A DNA stretch of 32,000 bases from Dickeya dadantii NCPPB 898. GTDB lineage: Bacteria; Pseudomonadota; Gammaproteobacteria; Enterobacterales; Enterobacteriaceae. Location of the stretch: assembly GCF_000406145.1 (NCBI RefSeq), contig NZ_CM001976.1, positions 3,774,955-3,806,954 of the forward strand, written 5' to 3'. Below are positions 17,674-32,000 of the stretch, one piece after another. Position numbers and translations under genes: made by a program. Position 1 is the stretch's first letter. Each line of letters starts with the position of its first letter. The notes under the pieces were generated by a model, which saw nothing but the letters and a program-made list of their open reading frames with translations, was not told the origin of the DNA and did no database searches.

Positions 17674-18816
17674 TCAGGAAATCGCCTGCGCCAGTTTGAT
17701 GGTGGCGGCAATATTGCGTGCGGTCATCCGTACATTGTCGGCGGCGTTATCCAGCGCTTCCTCCAGCGAACAGATGTTGTAAAGCACGCTGAATACCGCA
17801 TCCAGCCCATGATCGTGCACCACGCCCACGTCGGCCGTCAGGCTGCCGGCAATGCCGATCACCGGTTTGTGGTAGCGTTTAGCCACAGAAGCGACGCCAA
17901 TCGGCACCTTGCCGTGAATAGTCTGACTGTCGATACGGCCTTCGCCGGTGATCACCAGCGACGCATCCCTGACCAGTTCATCCAGCCCTAACGCTTCGGT
18001 GACAATCTCGATGCCGCGACGCAATTCCGCGCCGCAAAACGCCAGCAACGCCGCGCCCATGCCGCCGGCGGCGCCTGCGCCCGGCACCGGCTCCACGTCG
18101 ATGTCCAGATCGTGGCGGATCACTTCCGCATAGTGCCGTAATGCCTGATCCAACTGTTCCACCATCGCCTTGGTGGCGCCTTTCTGCGGCCCGAACACCG
18201 CCGACGCGCCCTGTTTGCCGGTCAGCGGATTGGTGACATCGCAGGCCACCTCAAACCGGCACTGCCGGATACGCGGGTCCAGCGAGCGAGTATCAATGTG
18301 CGCTAGTCGCGCCAGCTCAGCGCCGCCAAACCCGATCGGCTGCTTCGCGTCGTCCAGCAACTGCGCGCCCAATGCCTGCACCATCCCAGCGCCGCCATCG
18401 TTGGTGGCGCTGCCGCCGATGCCGATAATACAGTGGCGAACGCCGTGATCGAGCGCGCAGCGAATCAGCTCGCCGGTGCCATAGCTGGTGGTCAGCAGCG
18501 GATTACGCAGGTGCGGCGGCACCCGTTCCAGTCCGCTGGCGGCCGCCATCTCGATGAACGCCGTTTTTTCATCCCCTGACAGCCCGAAAAAAGCGTCGGT
18601 ATCATCGCCCAGCGGACCGGTGACGTTCACCTTGACGATTTTTCCGCGGGTTGCCGCCACCATGGCCTCCACGGTTCCCTCCCCCCCATCGGCGACCGGC
18701 AGTTTTACGTAGCTGGCGTCGGGGAACACCTCCCGAAAGCCGGCCTCAATCTGCGTCGCCACTTCCTGGGCGGATAAGCTCTCTTTGTAAGAATCCGGTG
18801 CGATAACTATTTTCAT
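17674..18816 (-). CDS. garK: Glycerate 2-kinase
   Basis: 380 aa, MKIVIAPDSYKESLSAQEVA…VADGGEGTVEAM…, a close match in pattern to E. coli GarK/GlxK. Its position after garL-garR favours garK. Confidence 0.9.
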   Translation of the reverse strand: MKIVIAPDSYKESLSAQEVATQIEAGFREVFPDASYVKLPVADGGEGTVEAMVAATRGKIVKVNVTGPLGDDTDAFFGLSGDEKTAFIEMAAASGLERVPPHLRNPLLTTSYGTGELIRCALDHGVRHCIIGIGGSATNDGGAGMVQALGAQLLDDAKQPIGFGGAELARLAHIDTRSLDPRIRQCRFEVACDVTNPLTGKQGASAVFGPQKGATKAMVEQLDQALRHYAEVIRHDLDIDVEPVPGAGAAGGMGAALLAFCGAELRRGIEIVTEALGLDELVRDASLVITGEGRIDSQTIHGKVPIGVASVAKRYHKPVIGIAGSLTADVGVVHDHGLDAVFSVLYNICSLEEALDNAADNVRMTARNIAATIKLAQAIS

Positions 18817-25051: not shown

Positions 25052-25549
25052 AGGGTTGGGTTACCAGAATGAAATCAAGAGTCGGTAATAGTTTGAAACC
25101 TGAGCAAAGGAACAAACAGAACAGCAAAAATAAACCACGAGACCTCTTCGACTTCTGGAGAGAATTATAAAGGGCGACTTTGGCAGCCTCACTGGACAAG
25201 CGCCCAACAATTACCGCCATCACCAACACGGATCATTGCAATCGCCCAACGGATTGGGAGTCATTTCACGAAAACGCCGTTTTTTGTCGTTCTGGTCGCA
25301 GAGCATGGTGGTGCCGATAAGGAAGGAAAAACGCGGGGAACGGAATAATGTGACAAGTCTCACTGCCTATTGTTTCTTCGCCAGAGAAATTAAGCACAGT
25401 GCATCAGGATGTCGGTCAATTGCATAATGCCTGTTGGCAGAAAGCTCACCTATACTGGTGCCGAGCAAAGTCATTATTAGCAGTAGCAGCGAAAATAAAC
25501 CGCGCGTTATAACTTTAACCAGCGTTATAAACATATGAAGGTTAACATC

Positions 25550-27124
25550 ATGTCAGATAACATAACAAAGGGTGTGGCCAGTGAGCGGCCGCTTTATATC
25601 AAGGTCCATGAGTCTGACAATGTTGCCATTGTCGTCAACAATAACGGCCTGAAAGCCGGCACCCGATTCAACTGCGGCCTGGAACTGAAAGAACACGTAC
25701 CGCAGGGTCACAAGGTCGCATTAAGCGATATCGCCCTCGGCGCGTCCATCGTCCGTTACGGCGAAATCATCGGCTACGCCCTCAGGGACATCGCCCGCGG
25801 CAGTTGGATCGATGAGTCGTTGGTGGAATTGCCCAACGCCCCGGCGCTGGAAACACTGCCGCTGGCGACTCGGGTTCCACCTGCACTGCCACCGCTGGAA
25901 GGTTATACCTTTGAAGGCTACCGTAATCCGGACGGCAGCGTCGGCACCAAAAACCTGCTCGGCATTACCACCAGCGTCCATTGCGTCGCCGGCGTGGTGG
26001 ATTACGTCGTCACGCTGATCGAACGCGACCTGCTGCCCCGTTACCCCAACGTGGATGGCGTGGTGGCGCTGAACCATTTGTACGGCTGCGGTGTGGCGAT
26101 CAATGCCCCGGCCGCGGTAGTGCCGATTCGCACCATCCATAACCTGGCGCTGAACCCGAACTTCGGCGGCGAGGTGCTGGTGGTCGGGCTGGGTTGCGAA
26201 AAACTCCAGCCGGAACGCCTGTTGCAGGGCACGCCGGATGTGCAGGCCATCTCACTGGACGACACCAGTATCGTGCGGCTGCAGGATGAACATCATGTCG
26301 GTTTCAAATCGATGGTGGACGATATCCTGACCATGGCGGATAAGCATCTGCAACAGCTCAACCGCCGTAAGCGCGAAACGGTGCCGGCTTCCGAACTGGT
26401 GGTCGGCATGCAGTGCGGCGGCAGCGATGCCTTTTCCGGCGTGACCGCCAACCCGGCGGTGGGATTCGCCTCCGACTTGTTGGTACGTTGCGGCGCCACG
26501 GTGATGTTTTCCGAAGTCACCGAAGTCCGTGACGCCATCCATCTGCTCACGCCACGCGCCATCAATGAAGAAGTGGGTAAACGCCTGCTGGAAGAGATGG
26601 CCTGGTATGACGATTATCTGGACAGCGGCAAGACCGACCGCAGCGCCAACCCGTCTCCCGGCAACAAGAAGGGTGGCCTGGCCAACGTGGTGGAAAAAGC
26701 GCTGGGGTCTATCGCCAAATCCGGCACCAGCGCGATTGTCGAAGTGCTGTCGCCGGGTCAGCGCCCGACCAGGCGCGGTCTGATTTACGCGGCCACGCCG
26801 GCCAGCGACTTTGTGTGCGGCACGCAGCAACTGGCTTCCGGCATCACGGTGCAGGTCTTCACCACCGGACGCGGCACCCCTTACGGGCTGAAAGCCGTGC
26901 CGGTTATCAAGATGGCGACCCGCACGGCGCTGGCGGAACGCTGGCATGACTTGATGGATATCAACGCCGGCACCATTGCCACCGGCGAAGCCACCATTGA
27001 GGATGTGGGCTGGCAGTTATTCCGTTTTATTCTGGATATCGCCAGCGGCAGGAAAAAAACCTGGTCCGATCAATGGGGCCTGCACAACGCCCTGTCGGTA
27101 TTCAACCCGGCGCCGGTTACCTGA
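25550..27124 (+). CDS. garD: Galactarate dehydratase
   Basis: Collinear with E. coli GarD (…[25 protein letters not shown]…FNPAPVT). Start placed at Met6 of the track ORF (25550) because GAAGG lies 8 nt upstream. 25535 remains possible. Confidence 0.92.
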
Positions 27125-27165
27125 TACGCCTATTTACGCGTTAACCACCCACGCGTTAACCGCCC

Positions 27166-27204
27166 CGCTCGCCACCGGATGTTTGATCCGGTGGCGAGCG
27201 TTTT
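27166..27204 (+). terminator. Strong rho-independent terminator of garD
   Basis: 14-bp perfect stem cgctcgccaccgga / tccggtggcgagcg, 7-nt loop, followed by tttt. Confidence 0.85.
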
Positions 27205-27475
27205 AAAATATTTCCCGCCCGCAACCTTTTATTAATTAGCTATATCATCCACGTAAATTTATTTTCGATAGAAAATAGCCAGCCGTTCATTTCATTGCGT
27301 CACCATTTAATTTCACTTAATAATTCGCACTATTGCCTTTTATTTTCACAAAGCACTTTTTCGTTACTGCTGTTAATAAAACGTTTTTATTGTGATCTCG
27401 GCTTTAAGAAAAAATAGAACAATATTTAATAAACCCAAATAAGGTAAAAAAAACGCCGCTCAAAAAATGATTTCA

Positions 27476-27503
27476 TTGACAACACAAAGACGCAAAGCAT
27501 AAA
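27476..27503 (+). promoter_or_regulatory. Candidate sigma-70 promoter inside the AT-rich leader
   Basis: Perfect -35 TTGACA (27476-27481), 16-nt spacer, then CATAAA (27498-27503). The region is AT-rich, so chance matches are likely. Confidence 0.25.
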
Positions 27504-27538
27504 TTCCCCCTTACAAAAAAATGGAATAACTTTACTCA

Positions 27539-27571
27539 GGGATGCTTTGAAATTTAAAGCGCCCTTTTTTT
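27539..27571 (+). terminator. Intrinsic-terminator-like hairpin plus T7 about 145 nt upstream of the aer-like start (attenuator or small-RNA 3' end)
   Basis: gggaugcuuu / aaagcgccc stem (9 pairs including one G-U, one bulged A), 7-nt loop, followed by ttttttt (27565-27571). It is oriented for the plus strand only. Confidence 0.5.
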
Positions 27572-27713
27572 CGTATCTTTTAACCTTGTGTTAAAAAAAA
27601 TAAAAATGATGATTCAACACACCTCTCAGCCCGTGTGATTAATCAGGCCGTGCTCACACGTCGGCCCTTCTATTCTCACGATATATTATTGATACACAGC
27701 ATCGGGGTTTCCA

Positions 27714-29249
27714 ATGAGGGTTAATGCACCTATTACACAACAGGAATACCTGTTGGATGACGGCACTACATTAATGTCGACCACGGATGTTAAAAGCCAC
27801 ATCACTTACGCCAATTCCGCCTTTATCCGCGTCAGCGGTTTTGATGAACATGAATTGATGGGAACGCCGCACAATATTGTGCGTCATCCGGATATGCCTG
27901 TCGAAGCCTTCGCCGACATGTGGTACACGCTGCAGCAGGGAGACAGCTGGACCGGTCTGGTTAAAAACCGTCGCAAGAACGGCGATCATTACTGGGTACG
28001 CGCCAACGTCACGCCGGTTTATCACCATAATCAGCTCGCCGGTTATATTTCGGTGCGCAATACCCCCAAAGCGGAAGAAATTCAGGCGGCGGAACCCTTG
28101 TACGAAGCAGTACAAAGTAAGCAGGCGCGCCATCTTCGGTTTTATAAAGGACTGGTGGTTCGAACCGGTGTGTTCTCGGTTCTGTCGCTGTTCCAGCGGC
28201 TATCGGTACGCTCACGGTTACGACTCGCGGTCCTGCTTGGCGGTCTGGTGCCGCTGGCGCTGACCTTACTGGGTTGCGGCGCGACGACGTCGATTGTCGC
28301 TACCCTACTATTGATGGTAACGATCGATCGGTTTCTGCAACGGCAAATCGCGCATCCGCTGCGTTTGATTCTGCGCCAGGCGCAACAGGTGGTGTCAGGT
28401 CGCCGGGCGGACAGCATTCATCTCAACCGGGTGGATGAAATCGGCCTGCTGCTGCGGGTGGTCAATCAGTTCGGGCTGAACCTGCATTCGCTGGTGGACG
28501 ACGTCGGCACGCAGGTCGCGGGCATCAACAGCGTCAGCCAGCAGTTAGCCGACAGCAACGGCGATCTGAGCGCGCGCACCGAGGAAACCTCCGCCAATCT
28601 GCAACAGACAGCGGCAGCCATCGAGCAGATTACCGTCGCGGTTCAACAGAGCGCGGACACCGCCACACAGGCGACCCAAATGGCGCAAAACGCCAGCCTG
28701 TCCGCCAGTAAAGGCGGCGATATCATGGCTGAAGCAGTGGGCATGATGGAGGCGATTTCGAACGCCAGCCGCAAAATCGTCGATATCATCGGCGTCATCG
28801 ACAGCATCGCGTTTCAGACCAACATCCTGGCGCTCAATGCCGCGGTGGAAGCGGCGCGGGCCGGTGTGGAAGGACGCGGCTTTGCCGTCGTAGCGGCGGA
28901 AGTACGTAGCCTGGCGCAGCATTCCGCGTCTGCCGCCCGCGAAATCAAAACGCTGATCGATGCCAACATGACCAGCGTTGAAAACGGCAGCGCGCTGGTG
29001 GACAAAGCCGGTCTGCATATTCAGGACATCGTCAACGACGTGCAACAGGTCGCGACCATGATCAGCGAGATCAGCAACGCCACCCGCGAACAAACCGCCG
29101 CGCTGTCGCTGATTAATGACTCCATTGCCCAGATCGAGCAGATGACCGCCGGCAATACCGGTATGGTCGATCAGTCAGCCGAGTTCGCCACCAGCCTCAG
29201 CAGGCAAGCGCTGCGGTTGACCGATGCGATTAATGTCTACGGGAAATGA
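27714..29249 (+). CDS. aer: Aerotaxis-type methyl-accepting chemotaxis protein (N-terminal PAS, membrane hairpin, HAMP, MCP signalling domain)
   Basis: 511 aa, collinear with E. coli Aer: TTLMSTTD…HNIVRHPDMP…KNRRKNGDHYWVRANV (PAS/FAD region) and IAFQTNILALNAAVEAARAG…GFAVVAAEVRSLA (highly conserved MCP hairpin). Confidence 0.85.
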   Translation: MRVNAPITQQEYLLDDGTTLMSTTDVKSHITYANSAFIRVSGFDEHELMGTPHNIVRHPDMPVEAFADMWYTLQQGDSWTGLVKNRRKNGDHYWVRANVTPVYHHNQLAGYISVRNTPKAEEIQAAEPLYEAVQSKQARHLRFYKGLVVRTGVFSVLSLFQRLSVRSRLRLAVLLGGLVPLALTLLGCGATTSIVATLLLMVTIDRFLQRQIAHPLRLILRQAQQVVSGRRADSIHLNRVDEIGLLLRVVNQFGLNLHSLVDDVGTQVAGINSVSQQLADSNGDLSARTEETSANLQQTAAAIEQITVAVQQSADTATQATQMAQNASLSASKGGDIMAEAVGMMEAISNASRKIVDIIGVIDSIAFQTNILALNAAVEAARAGVEGRGFAVVAAEVRSLAQHSASAAREIKTLIDANMTSVENGSALVDKAGLHIQDIVNDVQQVATMISEISNATREQTAALSLINDSIAQIEQMTAGNTGMVDQSAEFATSLSRQALRLTDAINVYGK

Positions 29250-29268
29250 TTAATGTCTACGGGAAATA
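29229..29268. repeat. 20-bp tandem duplication spanning the aer-like stop codon
   Basis: attaatgtctacgggaaatG (29229-29248) is followed by attaatgtctacgggaaatA (29249-29268), 19/20 identical. The stop TGA is at 29247-29249. Confidence 0.85.
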
Positions 29269-29368
29269 ATGGTTGGCGCAAAGATACAATTCTTTACGCC
29301 TTGCCCCGAGCAAAGGGTAGATAGAATTCGCTTTTTGGTTAATAATCACTCATAAGATCGCGCCAGGT

Positions 29369-29376
29369 GCCGATAA
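29369..29376 (+). promoter_or_regulatory. Sigma-28 (FliA)-type -10 element upstream of small gene A; -35 poorly positioned
   Basis: Exact GCCGATAA, 59 nt before the ATG. The upstream aatcac…taag segment is homologous to the gene B promoter but carries about 7 extra nt, so no TAAA lies at consensus spacing. Confidence 0.4.
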
Positions 29377-29427
29377 CAGAGATAGCAGGGACAGTCCCCT
29401 GCCCAGACGACATAATCAGGAGGATGT

Positions 29428-29760
29428 ATGCTGAGTCCAATTACCAGCTCTGCGTTTGCAGTGATGCCGGTGCCAGCATCCACCAGCGTCGAAACCAACA
29501 CTGAACAGAAGGTTTCCGATCGCAATCTGCAAAACCTGAAAGCCGCCGAGACATCTGGCGAAAGCACGAAAAAGCAGCAGGAAACCACGATTAACGGTCA
29601 GCAGCAGTCGATGCAGGCCCAGATTGTCGTGATGCAGGGTCAAATCGCACAGTTGCAAACCCAGCAAGTGCCGCCGCCGCAGGAAAGCAAACCGCTGGTC
29701 AAGCCGGTTGAAGGCGTCAATCGCCCGTCGGCCGAACACGCGATTGATATTTACATCTGA
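29428..29760 (+). CDS. Small Q-rich coiled-coil protein, FlxA-like family (most divergent of three paralogues)
   Basis: 110 aa with SD AGGAGG 4 nt upstream. It shares the QxxMQAQIxxxQxQIxQLQ core and the C-terminal IDIYI with the next two ORFs, and is followed by its own terminator. Confidence 0.75.
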   Translation: MLSPITSSAFAVMPVPASTSVETNTEQKVSDRNLQNLKAAETSGESTKKQQETTINGQQQSMQAQIVVMQGQIAQLQTQQVPPPQESKPLVKPVEGVNRPSAEHAIDIYI

Positions 29761-29790
29761 TCGGTCGGAACGTGAAATCACATAGCCAAG

Positions 29791-29820
29791 CCCGCTACCA
29801 ACCCAGCGGGTTTTGTTTTT
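29791..29820 (+). terminator. Rho-independent terminator of small gene A
   Basis: cccgct / agcggg stem with an 8-nt loop, followed by ttttgttttt. Confidence 0.75.
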
Positions 29821-29844
29821 CAGGGTGAAGGCAATCTCAATCAT

Positions 29845-29873
29845 TAAAATCACCTCGTAAGCTGCACCGATAA
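29845..29873 (+). promoter_or_regulatory. Sigma-28-type promoter of small gene B
   Basis: TAAAATCA-N13-ACCGATAA compared with the consensus TAAAGTTT-N11-GCCGATAA. The -10 lies 44 nt before the ATG. Confidence 0.5.
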
Positions 29874-29909
29874 CAACATCACGGGTATCACGATTTCAAG
29901 GAGATACGT

Positions 29910-30260
29910 ATGGTAGGTTCAGTTGGTTCGGCAACATCAACTCCGGGAGCAGCAAGCACCAGCACCGCAGGCGTTGAACAAAAGGTCGTGCAACTCACCA
30001 AGCAGGTTCAGTCCCTGACCAAAGAGCTGGGTACAGTGGCAGCAAAAATGCTCGCAGCTAAGACGGATGAAGAGCGCCAGTTGCTTCAGCAGCAGCAGAA
30101 AATGCTGCAGGCGCAGATCCAGCAATTACAGCAGCAGATTCAGCAACTGCAACAGCAAAAAGCCCAGCAGCAATCACAAGCAACGGACATCACCTCGTCC
30201 GCTCAGCAGGAAAAGAGTAATCCGCTTGCCGCTGACCGTTCGGTCGATATCTATATCTGA
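29910..30260 (+). CDS. Small Q-rich coiled-coil protein, FlxA-like family
   Basis: 116 aa with SD AAGGAG 6 nt upstream. Ser/Thr/Gly/Ala-rich N-terminus, TDEERQLLQQQQKMLQAQIQQLQQQIQQLQQQK core, C-terminal VDIYI. Confidence 0.8.
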   Translation: MVGSVGSATSTPGAASTSTAGVEQKVVQLTKQVQSLTKELGTVAAKMLAAKTDEERQLLQQQQKMLQAQIQQLQQQIQQLQQQKAQQQSQATDITSSAQQEKSNPLAADRSVDIYI

Positions 30261-30319
30261 TAGACCATTATTCCTGCTGACGCATTTGTATGGTCTTTGT
30301 CAGGAAAGCGAAAAGCCAA

Positions 30320-30347
30320 TAAAGATACCACTGTGCTATGCCGATAA
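30320..30347 (+). promoter_or_regulatory. Sigma-28-type promoter of small gene C (best match of the three)
   Basis: TAAAGATA-N12-GCCGATAA compared with the consensus TAAAGTTT-N11-GCCGATAA. The -10 lies 44 nt before the ATG, the same distance as for gene B. Confidence 0.7.
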
Positions 30348-30383
30348 CGGCATAGCCACTGTGGCTATTTTCAGGAGGAATTT

Positions 30384-30752
30384 ATGGCAAGCTCTATCGG
30401 CTCGGCAACATCAGCCGTTTCTGCGTCATCAGGCAGCGGTAGCGCCAGTATTGAGCAGCAGATTTCCCAGTTAAATAAGGAAATTCAAACGCTGTCCAAG
30501 CAAGCGGTTAAGCTGACTCAGCAGGTGAAAGACGCAACAACAGATGAAGAACGTAAATTGCTTGAACAGCAGCAAAAGATGATTCAGGCGCAGATCCAGC
30601 AACTGCAGGCGCAAATTCAGCAGTTGCAGCAGCAAAAAACACAACAGGCTCAGCAGAATCAGCCGTCGGAGGTTTCCTCCATTCAATCAACCAAGCCTCA
30701 GGAAGGCGTTAACGCGCCGACGGATGAGAACAGCATCAATATTTACATCTAA
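30384..30752 (+). CDS. Small Q-rich coiled-coil protein, FlxA-like family
   Basis: 122 aa with SD AGGAGG 5 nt upstream. Core TDEERKLLEQQQKMIQAQIQQLQAQIQQLQQQK is nearly identical to gene B. C-terminal INIYI. Confidence 0.8.
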   Translation: MASSIGSATSAVSASSGSGSASIEQQISQLNKEIQTLSKQAVKLTQQVKDATTDEERKLLEQQQKMIQAQIQQLQAQIQQLQQQKTQQAQQNQPSEVSSIQSTKPQEGVNAPTDENSINIYI

Positions 30753-30789
30753 TCCCGTGTCTGGCTGATTATCGCCTGAAATGAATGAA

Positions 30790-30826
30790 AGCATCATTTA
30801 TCGATATGATTAATGGTGCTTTTTTA
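30790..30826 (+). terminator. Rho-independent terminator after small gene C (possibly bidirectional)
   Basis: agcatcat / atggtgct stem (8 pairs, one G-U), about 15-nt loop, followed by tttttt. The reverse orientation has a weaker T-rich tail. Confidence 0.65.
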
Positions 30827-30923
30827 TTGGGTGAAAGCCTGTGCGGAAGGCAAATAATAGCGACGCCAGAGAGCAGCAAAGAATGCGGTCATCAGCCATT
30901 GACTCCCGCTATTAAGGTATCAA

Positions 30924-31043
30924 GATAGCAATGTACCTGAGATAGCTATGTACCTGAGATAACAATGTATCTGGAACAACAATTGTATCTGAAACAACAA
31001 TGTATCTGGAACAACAATGTATCTGAAACAACAACGCATCAGG
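30924..31043. repeat. Array of seven contiguous 17-18-bp tandem repeats (consensus rAyAACAATGTAyCTGr)
   Basis: Units: gatagcaatgtacctga, gatagctatgtacctga, gataacaatgtatctgg, aacaacaattgtatctga, aacaacaatgtatctgg, aacaacaatgtatctga, aacaacaacgcatcagg. The last unit overlaps the ypeB stop codon. Confidence 0.85.
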
Positions 31044-31260
31044 GCTGGGGACGGCGCAGCGGCTTAACCAACCCCTGCAACCCTTCCATCTTAATCGCCA
31101 GCGTAATCTGCATCAGTTCCCCTAACCGCCCCGCCGGGAATTCGCCCTTGCGGGCGAACCAAAGAAGATACTCTTCCGGCAAGTCGATCAGCATCCGGCC
31201 TTTGTATTTGCCAAACGGCATTGGCGTATTGGCTATCGCCAGCAGATCCGCTTTTTCCAT
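31039..31260 (-). CDS. ypeB: DUF3820-family small protein (YpeB-like)
   Basis: 73 aa, …MPFGKYKGRMLIDLPEEYLLWFARKGFP-type motif. It starts 7 nt after the ligA stop, the same arrangement I recall for E. coli ligA-ypeB. Confidence 0.75.
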   Translation of the reverse strand: MEKADLLAIANTPMPFGKYKGRMLIDLPEEYLLWFARKGEFPAGRLGELMQITLAIKMEGLQGLVKPLRRPQP

Positions 31261-31267
31261 CTTGCCT

Positions 31268-32000
<733 letters not shown>

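What the first reader, a model, noticed from the sequence alone, without database searches (positions are those of the whole stretch)
29340..30830. Triplicated stand-alone cassette: FliA-type promoter, strong SD, small Q-rich coiled-coil protein with conserved xDIYI C-terminus
Three ORFs of 110, 116 and 122 aa start 482 and 474 bp apart.

Each is preceded by a (G/A)CCGATAA octamer, the sigma-28 -10 consensus, and by AGGAGG or AAGGAG. The first and third are followed by clear intrinsic terminators. The array therefore looks like three monocistronic units, not an operon.

The proteins share four parts:
- a Ser/Thr/Gly/Ala-rich, probably disordered N-terminus with no signal peptide
- a heptad-like Q/L/I core (QQQKM[LI]QAQIQQLQ…QIQQLQQQK)
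- a polar linker
- an invariant hydrophobic tail: IDIYI, VDIYI or INIYI

I recognise this as the FlxA-like family, whose founding member is a FliA-dependent E. coli gene of unknown function. A three-copy array next to an aerotaxis receptor has no known role.

The disordered N-terminus combined with class-3-type promoters suggests late flagellar type III export substrates or filament- or motor-associated factors. That suggestion is inference.

Copy A has diverged in both its protein and its promoter spacing (about 7 nt inserted between the -35-like and -10 elements), which suggests subfunctionalisation or decay.
Basis: partly seen in the sequence, partly recalled or inferred. Interest (0 to 1): 0.7.

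Follow-up and report, generated by a model that had tools for sequence, protein, structure and literature searches.

The report
Three tandem FlxA-family flagellar-regulon genes
A Dickeya dadantii chromosome carries three tandem copies of flxA, a small flagellum-co-regulated gene whose function is still unknown; the array is real and expressed but belongs to an already named family.

Summary
Three ORFs (110, 116 and 122 aa) start at 29428, 29910 and 30384. Each has a strong Shine-Dalgarno sequence and an upstream (G/A)CCGATAA octamer. All three score above the Pfam FlxA (PF14282) cut-off.

The window is Dickeya dadantii. The array sits at a conserved site beside ypeB-ligA, where Pantoea and Enterobacter carry one flxA-like gene. 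Dickeya and its relatives carry two to four (A-C, A-B-C, A-C-D, A-B-C-D).

Every family gene examined (29 in 13 genomes) has a sigma-28-like site upstream. A published transcriptome map of strain 3937 refines the operon picture:
- Copy C starts 6 nt after its octamer.
- Copy A's strong start lies upstream of its octamer, at a sigma-70-like promoter.
- Long reads span A-B and B-C.

Copy A is not decaying (dN/dS about 0.03). B and C evolve faster.

The predicted protein is a helical hairpin with disordered ends. Both ends carry conserved motifs: M[TS][TS]I at the N-terminus and GVNRPT…[IVL][DN][VI]Y[IV] at the C-terminus.

My best mechanistic guess is a late flagellar type III export substrate, or a partner of the export gate. 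This is inferred, at about 0.45. Verdict: new members of a known family of unknown function; moderate interest.

The parts
29318..29346 (+). Sigma-70-like promoter of copy A (TAGATA, 17 nt, AATAAT)
   Evidence: Consensus scan. The block TTGGTTAATAATCACTCAT is conserved in Dickeya and Prodigiosinella. The TEX-supported start at 3889541 in strain 3937 maps to window 29355, 8 nt after this -10 element.
29369..29377 (+). Sigma-28 -10-like element GCCGATAAC upstream of copy A, with no matching -35
   Evidence: PWM -10 score is 14.4-14.7 with no -35 match, for a total of about 11.5-11.9. The element is invariant in Dickeya and reads ACCGATAAC in Prodigiosinella, whose flanks have diverged. It lies at +15 of the mapped transcript, so it is a possible second promoter, not shown to be used.
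29385..29402 (+). Stem-loop in the 5' UTR of copy A (GCAGGG…CCCUGC)
   Evidence: Predicted fold. The stem is kept in Prodigiosinella as GCAGAAC…GUUCUGC, with two G-C to A-U double changes.
29428..29760 (+). Copy A, a 110-aa FlxA-family protein (Dda3937_00183 orthologue)
   Evidence: Pfam FlxA 30.7 bits. dN/dS is 0.024-0.036. The tail reads EGVNRPSAEHAIDIYI. The AF2 model is low-confidence, with helices at 27-42 and 54-80.
29788..29820 (+). Intrinsic terminator after copy A
   Evidence: Scan and fold. The Nanopore 3' end at 3890001 maps to window 29814, in the U tract. The published map rates this termination site 'strong+pred'.
29845..29874 (+). Sigma-28-like promoter of copy B (TAAAATCA, 13 nt, ACCGATAAC)
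   Evidence: PWM total is 16.8-17.8, second best in the window. B orthologues have TAAAGTCA-N12-GCCGATAGC. No transcription start was retained here in the 3937 map.
29910..30260 (+). Copy B, a 116-aa FlxA-family protein (Dda3937_00182 orthologue)
   Evidence: Pfam FlxA 53.7 bits. It lacks the GVNRP motif, as does E. coli FlxA. dN/dS is 0.17-0.18. It is present only in D. dadantii, D. undicola and D. fangzhongdai.
30320..30348 (+). Sigma-28 promoter of copy C (TAAAGATA, 12 nt, GCCGATAAC)
   Evidence: Best sigma-28 PWM match in the 32-kb window: 16.9 with fixed spacer, 24-25 with spacer 12. The start at 3890540 in strain 3937 maps to window 30353, 6 nt after the octamer. TAA[AG]G and GCCGATA are conserved across Dickeya and Prodigiosinella.
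30384..30752 (+). Copy C, a 122-aa FlxA-family protein (Dda3937_00181, identical protein)
   Evidence: Pfam FlxA 91.8 bits. The exact protein is found on CP002038.1. The AF2 hairpin has helices at 20-50 and 54-91 with pLDDT above 90; residues 1-19 and 92-122 are disordered.
30787..30826 (+). Intrinsic terminator after copy C
   Evidence: Fold z = -3.4. The Nanopore 3' end at 3891009 maps to window 30822, in the U tract. It is the primary termination site, rated 'strong+pred'.
27714..29249 (+). Aer-like receptor gene upstream (PAS-HAMP-MCP signalling); a neighbour, not part of the array's transcripts
   Evidence: Pfam domains. Nanopore co-transcription of aer with A was 'invalidated'. No sigma-28 motif lies in its 590-nt upstream region.

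Best explanation
The region holds three paralogous genes of the FlxA-like family (PF14282) in Dickeya dadantii.

Locus and copy number (shown):
- The array arose by local expansion at a conserved chromosomal site beside ypeB-ligA.
- The pair A + C is ancestral to Dickeya and Prodigiosinella.
- B, and in other strains a fourth type D, were added later.

Protein (shown):
- Each gene encodes a protein of about 12 kDa.
- For copy C the predicted fold is a confident antiparallel helical hairpin flanked by a disordered Ser/Thr/Gly-rich N-terminus and a disordered C-terminal tail. Copy A's model is low-confidence, and B was not modelled.
- The family conserves a short motif at each end: M-[TS]-[TS]-I at the N-terminus, and G-[VI]-N-R-P-[TS]-x4-5-[IVL]-[DN]-[VI]-Y-[IVA] at the C-terminus. 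A and B start MLSPI and MVGSV, and B lacks the GVNRP part.

Expression:
- Shown: C has its own sigma-28-type promoter and a matching transcription start.
- Motif only: B has a sigma-28-like promoter.
- Shown: A is driven mainly by a sigma-70-like promoter. It also has a conserved sigma-28 -10 element just downstream, which may act as a second promoter.
- Shown: terminators follow A and C, with partial read-through.

Mechanism (inferred, not shown): the proteins are non-essential accessories of the late flagellar programme and are handled by the flagellar type III export apparatus. The disordered N-terminus would act as the export signal. The invariant-Tyr C-terminal peptide would dock on a partner, such as the FlhA cytoplasmic ring or an export chaperone. 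The proteins would then either leave the cell as late substrates or modulate the export gate.

Confidence in identity, coding status and expression is about 0.95. Confidence in the export-linked mechanism is about 0.45.
For: Family and coding status:
- Pfam FlxA scores are above the cut-off for all three.
- Purifying selection acts on all three: dN/dS is 0.03 for A, 0.17-0.18 for B and 0.12-0.17 for C.

Synteny and copy number:
- Pantoea and Enterobacter have one copy between gltX and yfeR-yfeH-ypeB-ligA.
- Dickeya and Prodigiosinella have 2-4 copies between aer and ypeB-ligA.

Promoters:
- The PWM was built from E. coli FliA ChIP-seq sites.
- It ranks C first and B second in the window.
- It finds a site upstream of 29 of 29 family genes in 13 genomes.
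- E. coli flxA expression is 280 in wild type against 2 in a fliA mutant (PMC4183435).

Transcripts:
- The D. dadantii 3937 map gives transcription starts for A and C, 3' ends after A, B and C, and read-through A-B and B-C (PMC9239193).

Structure:
- The AF2 model of C shows a hairpin with pLDDT above 90 and termini with pLDDT below 50.

Motif statistics, from 91 family representatives:
- Tyr at position -2 in 75.
- D or N at position -4 in 83.
- The G[VIT]N motif in 64.
- An M[TS][TS]I start in the majority.
- Only 1.15 charged residues on average in the first 20.

Export hints:
- E. coli FlxA was found in a culture exoproteome, co-enriched with FlgK, FliD, FliC, FlgL and FlgM (PMC6391000).
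- FlxA was the only flagellar-regulon gene named among those with opposite mRNA and protein changes at 42 C. At that temperature flagellar export is impaired, and cellular FlgM is maintained while secreted FlgM drops (PMC6551532).
- Precedent: FlaG is a small secreted protein that competes at FlhA (PMC11536152).
Against: - No direct secretion or interaction data exist for any FlxA-family protein.
- The exoproteome that contains FlxA also contains the cytoplasmic proteins CheY, isocitrate lyase and glucan phosphorylase, so cell lysis is not excluded.
- The direction of the mRNA/protein discordance at 42 C is not stated in the text I could read.
- Copy A's main mapped promoter is sigma-70-like, not sigma-28. 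At least one paralogue is therefore not strictly coupled to the flagellar programme.
- No cognate chaperone gene lies nearby.
- Fold and sequence searches return only generic coiled coils.
Confidence: 0.45

Rival explanations
1. The proteins are cytoplasmic and never exported. The helical hairpin oligomerises, and the C-terminal [IVL][DN][VI]Y[IV] peptide tethers it to a cytoplasmic partner of the motility or chemotaxis machinery. This would resemble the way the C-terminal pentapeptide of some chemoreceptors tethers CheR and CheB. The paralogues would tune that partner.
For: - A conserved linear motif sits at the end of a disordered tail.
- An Aer-type receptor lies next to the array in Dickeya and Prodigiosinella.
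- Copy A has a sigma-70-like promoter and very strong constraint.
- There is no signal peptide.
- The exoproteome evidence is compatible with lysis.
Against: - Adjacency to aer is lineage-specific. Pantoea, Enterobacter, Hafnia and E. coli copies have other neighbours.
- aer is not co-transcribed with A and has no sigma-28 motif.
- The family-wide uncharged Ser/Thr/Gly N-terminus with a conserved M[TS][TS]I start has no obvious role in a purely cytoplasmic adaptor.
- The tail does not match the xWxxF chemoreceptor pentapeptide (from my own knowledge, not tested).
Confidence: 0.3
2. The proteins are exported and then act outside the cell, as filament- or surface-associated factors or as factors that meet the host or competitors. 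Exposure would explain why B, C and D evolve fast and recombine, while A stays conserved as an intracellular or partner subunit.
For: - B and C have 5- to 50-fold higher dN than A.
- Their dS against D. undicola and D. fangzhongdai (0.9-1.6) exceeds that of the flanking genes (0.16-0.58). This points to allele replacement, as is typical of exposed proteins.
- Paralogue content varies among strains.
- The A + C pair is always present.
Against: - dN/dS stays well below 1.
- The family occurs in enteric, plant-associated and environmental Enterobacterales alike, so a host-specific role is unlikely.
- There is no evidence of extracellular localisation in Dickeya.
Confidence: 0.15
3. The genes are prophage-derived morons or an anti-phage function, switched on with flagella for example against flagellotropic phages. 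The founding E. coli gene lies in a prophage.
For: - E. coli flxA lies inside the cryptic prophage Qin.
- An identical gene is on phage PhiR42_1.
- E. coli FlxA defines phrog_11044.
Against: - Only 1 of 50,697 phage records carries it.
- The Dickeya, Pantoea and Enterobacter genes sit among housekeeping genes at a conserved chromosomal site.
- PADLOC gives only weak coiled-coil matches. The Dickeya copies have no significant PHROG match beyond B's weak hit to phrog_11044 (E = 2e-4).
Confidence: 0.05

Closest known systems
E. coli K-12 FlxA (b1566; founding member of Pfam PF14282)
   Same: - Same Pfam family and similar size (110 aa).
- Uncharged Ser/Thr-rich N-terminus, central coiled coil and an [IV]DIY[IV] C-terminus.
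- Stand-alone gene with a sigma-28 promoter, TAAAGATT-N11-GCCGATAG.
- Function unknown.
   Different: - The E. coli gene is a single copy inside the Qin prophage. The Dickeya genes form a chromosomal 2-4-copy array beside ypeB-ligA.
- Identity is low: 24-27% for B and C, and no significant BLASTP match for A.
- E. coli FlxA and copy B lack the GVNRP[TS] motif that A, C and most family members carry.
- Copy A has an additional, dominant sigma-70-like promoter.
FlaG of polar flagellates (Campylobacter, Vibrio, Pseudomonas)
   Same: - It is a small accessory protein of the flagellar system that is secreted by the flagellar type III system.
- It is dispensable for assembly.
- It acts by competing with FliS-flagellin at FlhA (PMC11536152).
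- This is a model for how a small non-structural flagellar-regulon protein can work.
   Different: - No sequence relationship was detected: FlaG is not among the Pfam hits returned.
- FlxA is a helical hairpin by prediction.
- No filament-length phenotype or FlhA binding is known for FlxA.
- The resemblance is functional analogy only.
FlgM (anti-sigma-28 factor)
   Same: - It is a small protein of about 100 aa that is transcribed from a sigma-28 promoter and exported as a late flagellar type III substrate (from my own knowledge). It is largely disordered, which applies only to FlxA's termini.
- Its cellular level is maintained when export is impaired at 42 C (PMC6551532). That may parallel the FlxA protein/mRNA discordance.
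   Different: - No homology.
- FlxA has a confident helical hairpin core.
- Its C-terminal motif is unrelated to the sigma-28-binding region of FlgM.
- There is no evidence that FlxA binds FliA.

Membership tests
FlxA-like protein family (Pfam PF14282) | Score at or above the Pfam gathering cut-off (26.3 bits) | tested here: met
   A 30.7, B 53.7 and C 91.8 bits.
FlxA-like protein family (Pfam PF14282) | Protein of about 100-130 aa with a central coiled coil and no signal peptide | tested here: met
   Lengths are 110, 116 and 122 aa. AF2 gives a helical hairpin at 20-91 in C. A's model is weaker. The absence of a signal peptide was judged by eye from the N-terminal sequence; no signal-peptide predictor was run.
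FlxA-like protein family (Pfam PF14282) | Extreme C-terminus [IVL]-[DN]-[VI]-Y-[IVA] | tested here: met
   Tails are IDIYI, VDIYI and INIYI. In 91 family representatives, Tyr is at position -2 in 75 and D or N at position -4 in 83.
FlxA-like protein family (Pfam PF14282) | G-[VI]-N-R-P-[TS] motif 12-16 residues before the C-terminus (majority feature, absent from E. coli FlxA) | tested here: met
   A has EGVNRPS and C has EGVNAPT. B (EKSNPLA) lacks it, as does E. coli FlxA. 64 of 91 representatives have it.
FlxA-like protein family (Pfam PF14282) | Transcription dependent on the flagellar sigma factor FliA | tested here: inconclusive
   Motif level: C is strong, B is moderate, and A has a -10 element only. 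The 3937 map gives C a start 6 nt after its octamer, gives A a start upstream of its octamer at a sigma-70-like promoter, and gives B none. Dependence on fliA itself cannot be tested with these tools.
Late flagellar type III export substrates | Export into the medium that depends on the flagellar export gate and on hook completion | not testable with these tools
   There are only indirect hints for E. coli FlxA: its presence in an exoproteome with FlgK, FlgL, FliD, FliC and FlgM, but also with CheY, and its protein/mRNA discordance at 42 C.
Late flagellar type III export substrates | Disordered N-terminal export signal | tested here: inconclusive
   Residues 1-19 of C have pLDDT below 50. The family N-termini are 66% S/T/G/A/N/Q, average 1.15 charged residues in the first 20, and mostly start M[TS][TS]I. 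This is compatible with a signal but not diagnostic.
Late flagellar type III export substrates | Dedicated export chaperone (FlgN, FliS or FliT type) or sigma-28 as chaperone | not tested
   No such gene lies next to the array. Interaction prediction for multi-chain complexes was not available.
Prophage moron / anti-phage defence gene | Location in a prophage or defence island, or a match to known defence families | tested here: not met
   The flanks are garD, aer, ypeB and ligA. PADLOC gives only weak coiled-coil hits. Only the E. coli subtype is phage-borne.

The most novel reading that the evidence does not exclude
FlxA-family proteins may be an unrecognised class of small clients or modulators of the flagellar type III export gate in peritrichous Enterobacterales. 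They would be recognised through a conserved N-terminal M[TS][TS]I signal and a C-terminal invariant-Tyr peptide that docks on FlhA-C or on an export chaperone. In Dickeya the ancestral A + C pair would form a heteromeric four-helix bundle, with a constrained, sigma-70-expressed subunit (A) partnering fast-evolving, sigma-28-expressed exported subunits (B, C, D).
Probability: 0.2. Interest if true: 0.65.

Novelty: new member of a known kind. Interest (0 to 1): 0.38.

Why it matters
FlxA has been a textbook 'FliA-dependent gene of unknown function' since 1997, and no mechanism has been proposed for it. This locus adds several handles for experiments:
- a conserved chromosomal home for the family;
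- a natural series of 1-4 paralogues;
- two conserved terminal motifs flanking a predicted hairpin;
- one paralogue that has moved to a sigma-70-type promoter and is under very tight constraint.

Together these make the question directly testable by secretion assays, tail-peptide pull-downs and multi-gene deletions in a genetically tractable plant pathogen.

If the export-gate reading holds, it would give peritrichous enterobacteria a counterpart to the FlaG-type modulators of polar flagellates. If it fails, the finding remains an ordinary paralogue expansion of a small accessory gene.

Tried and rejected
Searches that led nowhere:
- A PDB sequence search with the family profile returned only designed or generic coiled coils.
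- Foldseek of the copy C model against PDB returned only generic helical hairpins, with E above 0.7. The hits included HP0958, CT398, CdsO and phytoplasma phyllogens, and none were significant.
- NCBIfam gave no family match.
- Rfam on 27000-32000 gave only a sub-threshold isrG match.
- PADLOC and PHROGs gave nothing meaningful for the Dickeya copies.
- A single-sequence word-index homologue search gave one hit, because the sequence is low-complexity. A profile was needed.
- The genome-collection scan was swamped by Q-rich patterns and returned only two loci. Other loci came from exact-protein look-ups.
- The locus tags Dda3937_00181 to Dda3937_00184 appear in no searchable main text.
- Supplements of the 42 C study are not held, so the direction of the FlxA change could not be read.
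- The rows of Table S1B that give the predicted sigma factor for these transcription starts are truncated in the stored copy.

Ideas considered and rejected:
- Copy A as a decaying copy. Rejected by dN/dS.
- A 7-nt insertion in A's sigma-28 promoter. Replaced by a separate conserved sigma-70-like promoter that matches the mapped start.
- Co-regulation of aer with the array. There is no sigma-28 motif, and co-transcription was invalidated.
- A remnant of a D copy between C and ypeB. None was evident by eye; this was not tested rigorously.
- The C-terminal tail as an outer-membrane-protein beta-signal or a chemoreceptor pentapeptide. The patterns do not match, judged from my own knowledge.
Full report
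**Observation**

The sequence shows three + strand ORFs, at 29428-29760 (110 aa, copy A), 29910-30260 (116 aa, B) and 30384-30752 (122 aa, C). Their starts are 482 and 474 bp apart.
- Each ORF has a strong Shine-Dalgarno sequence 4-6 nt before the ATG: AGGAGG, AAGGAG and AGGAGG.
- Each has an upstream octamer: GCCGATAA at 29369, ACCGATAA at 29866 and GCCGATAA at 30340.
- RCCGATAA occurs 7 times in the window against 1.66 expected, and no shuffle of 100 reaches 7.
- The tails are IDIYI, VDIYI and INIYI.
- A canonical terminator follows A, and an A/U-rich 12-bp stem with U6 follows C (z = -3.4). Only a weak hairpin follows B.

**Family**

All three proteins exceed the Pfam gathering score for FlxA (PF14282), with 30.7, 53.7 and 91.8 bits against 26.3. 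NCBIfam, PADLOC and PHROGs add nothing for the Dickeya copies.

An exhaustive HMMER search of 1.84 billion representatives found only 50 clusters at E <= 0.001. A profile search found 82 proteins. Every source-named hit is from Enterobacterales: Pantoea, Enterobacter, Kluyvera, Cedecea, Hafnia, Serratia, Erwinia, Citrobacter, Yersinia, Brenneria and Dickeya. Many hits are unnamed metagenome proteins. NCBI already names the Dickeya proteins 'FlxA-like family protein'.

**Organism and locus**

Copy C's exact protein is encoded on CP002038.1, at about 3.89 Mb. The published map of D. dadantii strain 3937 uses matching coordinates. The window itself matches other assemblies, such as GCA_013168575.1, and differs from 3937 by small indels.

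The array lies between an Aer-type receptor gene and ypeB-ligA. Pantoea and Enterobacter have a single flxA-like gene in the same neighbourhood, in the order gltX, flxA, yfeR-yfeH-ypeB-ligA. Hafnia has one elsewhere. E. coli's copy is inside the Qin prophage, and an identical gene is on one phage of 50,697 records.

Copy content varies within Dickeya and its relative Prodigiosinella:

| Content | Genomes |
|---|---|
| A + C | Prodigiosinella, D. oryzae, three other Dickeya |
| A + B + C | the window, D. undicola, D. fangzhongdai |
| A + C + D | D. lacustris, Dickeya CP094338 |
| A + B + C + D | D. fangzhongdai CP092458 |

The triplication is therefore one state of a variable 2-4-copy array built on an ancestral A + C pair.

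**Selection**

Nei-Gojobori estimates against other Dickeya species are below.

| Gene | dN/dS | Protein identity |
|---|---|---|
| A | 0.024-0.036 | 94-99% |
| B | 0.17-0.18 | about 72% |
| C | 0.12-0.17 | 69-83% |
| aer | 0.06-0.10 | 89-97% |
| ypeB | 0-0.05 | 92-100% |

All three are real genes. Copy A is the most constrained, which rejects the 'decay' idea.

The dS of B and C against D. undicola and D. fangzhongdai is 0.9-1.6. That far exceeds the flanking genes (0.16-0.58) and suggests allele replacement or recombination.

**Promoters**

I built a position weight matrix from the E. coli FliA ChIP-seq sites with FAT score above 4 (PMC4183435).
- Copy C's site, TAAAGATA-N12-GCCGATAAC, is the best match in the whole window.
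- B's site, TAAAATCA-N13-ACCGATAAC, is second.
- A has a perfect -10 element but no -35.

I then rebuilt the matrix with E. coli flxA left out of the training set. It found a site within 150 nt upstream of 29 of 29 family genes in 13 genomes, with -10 scores of 9.6-14.7. The 95th percentile of the total score in background windows is 10.6.

Alignments show the octamer is invariant even where the flanks diverge, as in Prodigiosinella.

**Experimental transcript map**

The published map of strain 3937 (PMC9239193, Tables S1A and S2D) places the four genes in transcription unit 1618. These are Dda3937_00184 (aer), _00183 (A), _00182 (B) and _00181 (C). I mapped its coordinates onto the window.
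- Start of A: a TEX-supported 'strong+pred' internal start at 3889541 corresponds to window 29355. This is 14 nt upstream of A's octamer and 8 nt after the -10 of a sigma-70-like promoter, TAGATA-17-AATAAT (29318-29346). That promoter's block is conserved across Dickeya and Prodigiosinella.
- Start of C: a 'medium+pred' start at 3890540 corresponds to window 30353, 6 nt after C's octamer, as expected for a sigma-28 promoter.
- Start of B: none was retained.
- 3' ends: Nanopore 3' ends lie after A (29814, in the U tract), B (30325) and C (30822, in the U tract).
- Co-transcription: long reads validate A-B and B-C but not aer-A.

In summary, C is a sigma-28 unit. B may rely on its weaker sigma-28-like site and on read-through. 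A is mainly sigma-70-driven, with a conserved sigma-28 -10 element at +15 that could be a second promoter. The aer gene has no sigma-28 motif.

**Protein anatomy**

AlphaFold2 with the family alignment predicts copy C as follows (mean pLDDT 72.5).
- Helices at 20-50 and 54-91 form a hairpin with pLDDT above 90.
- Residues 1-19 and 92-122 are disordered, with pLDDT below 50.

Copy A's model is low-confidence (54.7), with a shorter first helix. A's similarity to other genera is confined to helix 2 plus the tail.

Across 91 family representatives:
- The C-terminus is [IVL]-[DN]-[VI]-Y-[IVA], with Tyr in 75 of 91.
- A G[VIT]N(R)P[TS] motif lies upstream in 64 of 91. It is absent in B and in E. coli FlxA.
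- The N-terminus usually starts M-[TS]-[TS]-I.
- The first 20 residues are 66% S/T/G/A/N/Q and contain about one charged residue.

Both conserved motifs therefore sit in disordered ends of a small hairpin. That is the anatomy of a protein that is recognised by, or docks on, something else.

**Mechanism**

What is shown: family membership, coding constraint, transcripts, and promoter types.

What is inferred: a link to flagellar type III export. The support is as follows.
- The founding member is under class-3 control, with expression of 280 against 2 in a fliA mutant.
- It is co-regulated with flagellar genes in other data sets.
- The termini have the signal-like features described above.
- E. 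coli FlxA appears in an exoproteome alongside FlgK, FliD, FliC, FlgL and FlgM (PMC6391000).
- FlxA shows discordant mRNA and protein changes at 42 C, when export is impaired and cellular FlgM is maintained (PMC6551532).
- FlaG provides a precedent as a small secreted competitor at FlhA (PMC11536152).

The evidence against is as follows.
- The exoproteome also holds cytoplasmic proteins such as CheY.
- The direction of the 42 C discordance is not stated in the text I could read.
- A is sigma-70-driven.
- No structural or sequence relative is informative.

I put the export-linked reading at about 0.45, a purely cytoplasmic tethered adaptor at about 0.3, an extracellular role as a sub-case at about 0.15, and a phage or defence role at about 0.05.

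**Verdict**

It is a new set of members, and a variable multi-copy arrangement, of an already named family whose function is unknown. It is not a new kind of system.

The value added here has four parts:
- the conserved locus;
- the 2-4-copy series;
- the split between a constrained sigma-70-type paralogue and faster-evolving sigma-28-type paralogues;
- the two terminal motifs.

Interest is moderate (0.38).

Noticed in passing
window 29228-29267: A perfect 20-bp tandem duplication (GATTAATGTCTACGGGAAAT x2) spans the aer stop codon, so the stop context is repeated (…GGGAAATGA TTAATGTCTACGGGAAATAA). It is absent from strain 3937, where the aer-to-A spacing is 160 nt against 179 nt here. It is present in several other D. 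dadantii assemblies.
   Followed up: partly
window 30923-31034: A 17-bp minisatellite (CAATGTATCTGAAACAA, about 6 copies) lies between copy C and ypeB. The copy number of the exact pattern ranges from 2 to 8 among D. dadantii strains. It was not found in the other species' loci. In other Dickeya this is where the fourth paralogue (D) sits.
   Followed up: partly
window 29385-29402 and 30352-30368: Short stem-loops lie in the 5' UTRs of A and C. C's sits at the 5' end of its mapped transcript, and A's would sit at the 5' end of a sigma-28-initiated transcript. A's stem is kept in Prodigiosinella through two compensatory G-C to A-U changes. The folding z-scores are unremarkable (-1.3 and -0.6). 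They may be mRNA-stabilising 5' hairpins.
   Followed up: partly
window 30340-30351: The -10 element of copy C is embedded in a perfect palindrome, GCCGATAACGGC. It is conserved in most of the Dickeya species examined, sometimes as GCCGATAACGGT. Its significance is unknown.
   Followed up: no
window 29910-30752 compared with L007 and L015: B and C have synonymous divergence from D. undicola and D. fangzhongdai (dS 0.9-1.6) several-fold above the flanking aer and ypeB genes (0.16-0.58). The window's C is closer to the D. oryzae-type allele. This suggests allele exchange or gene conversion inside the array.
   Followed up: partly
L022 4735-5121; L026 3501-3887; L027 3501-3917: A fourth paralogue type (D, 128-138 aa, ending …S[IV][DN]VYI or GVDVFV) with its own sigma-28-like site follows C in some Dickeya. 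It scores only 'faint' or not at all against Pfam FlxA in the precomputed annotations.
   Followed up: partly
window 27125-27713: The Aer-like receptor gene has no sigma-28-type motif in its 590-nt upstream region (best PWM score 5.5), unlike E. coli aer. Its mapped primary start in 3937 is 3887687.
   Followed up: partly
window 30113-30157 and 30585-30636: In-frame 21-nt tandem repeats (2.1-2.5 copies) encode the repeated heptad QIQQLQ(Q/A) in B and C. These are DNA-level heptad duplications that could change coiled-coil length by slippage.
   Followed up: no
window 25313-25320 and 18421-18428: Two further GCCGATAA octamers lie on the + strand. One is 222 nt upstream of the garD-like dehydratase gene (no -35 match, total PWM score 5.2). 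The other is inside the 17674-18816 ORF on the opposite strand. They are probably chance matches or weak intragenic FliA sites of the kind seen in E. coli ChIP-seq.
   Followed up: partly
L017 2901-3503: In Prodigiosinella the aer-to-A spacer is about 600 nt instead of about 160. By eye it contains a stretch resembling the 3' end of the upstream dehydratase gene (…CGCTGGCATGATCTCATGGAGATCAATGCTGG…). This may be a duplicated gene fragment.
   Followed up: no
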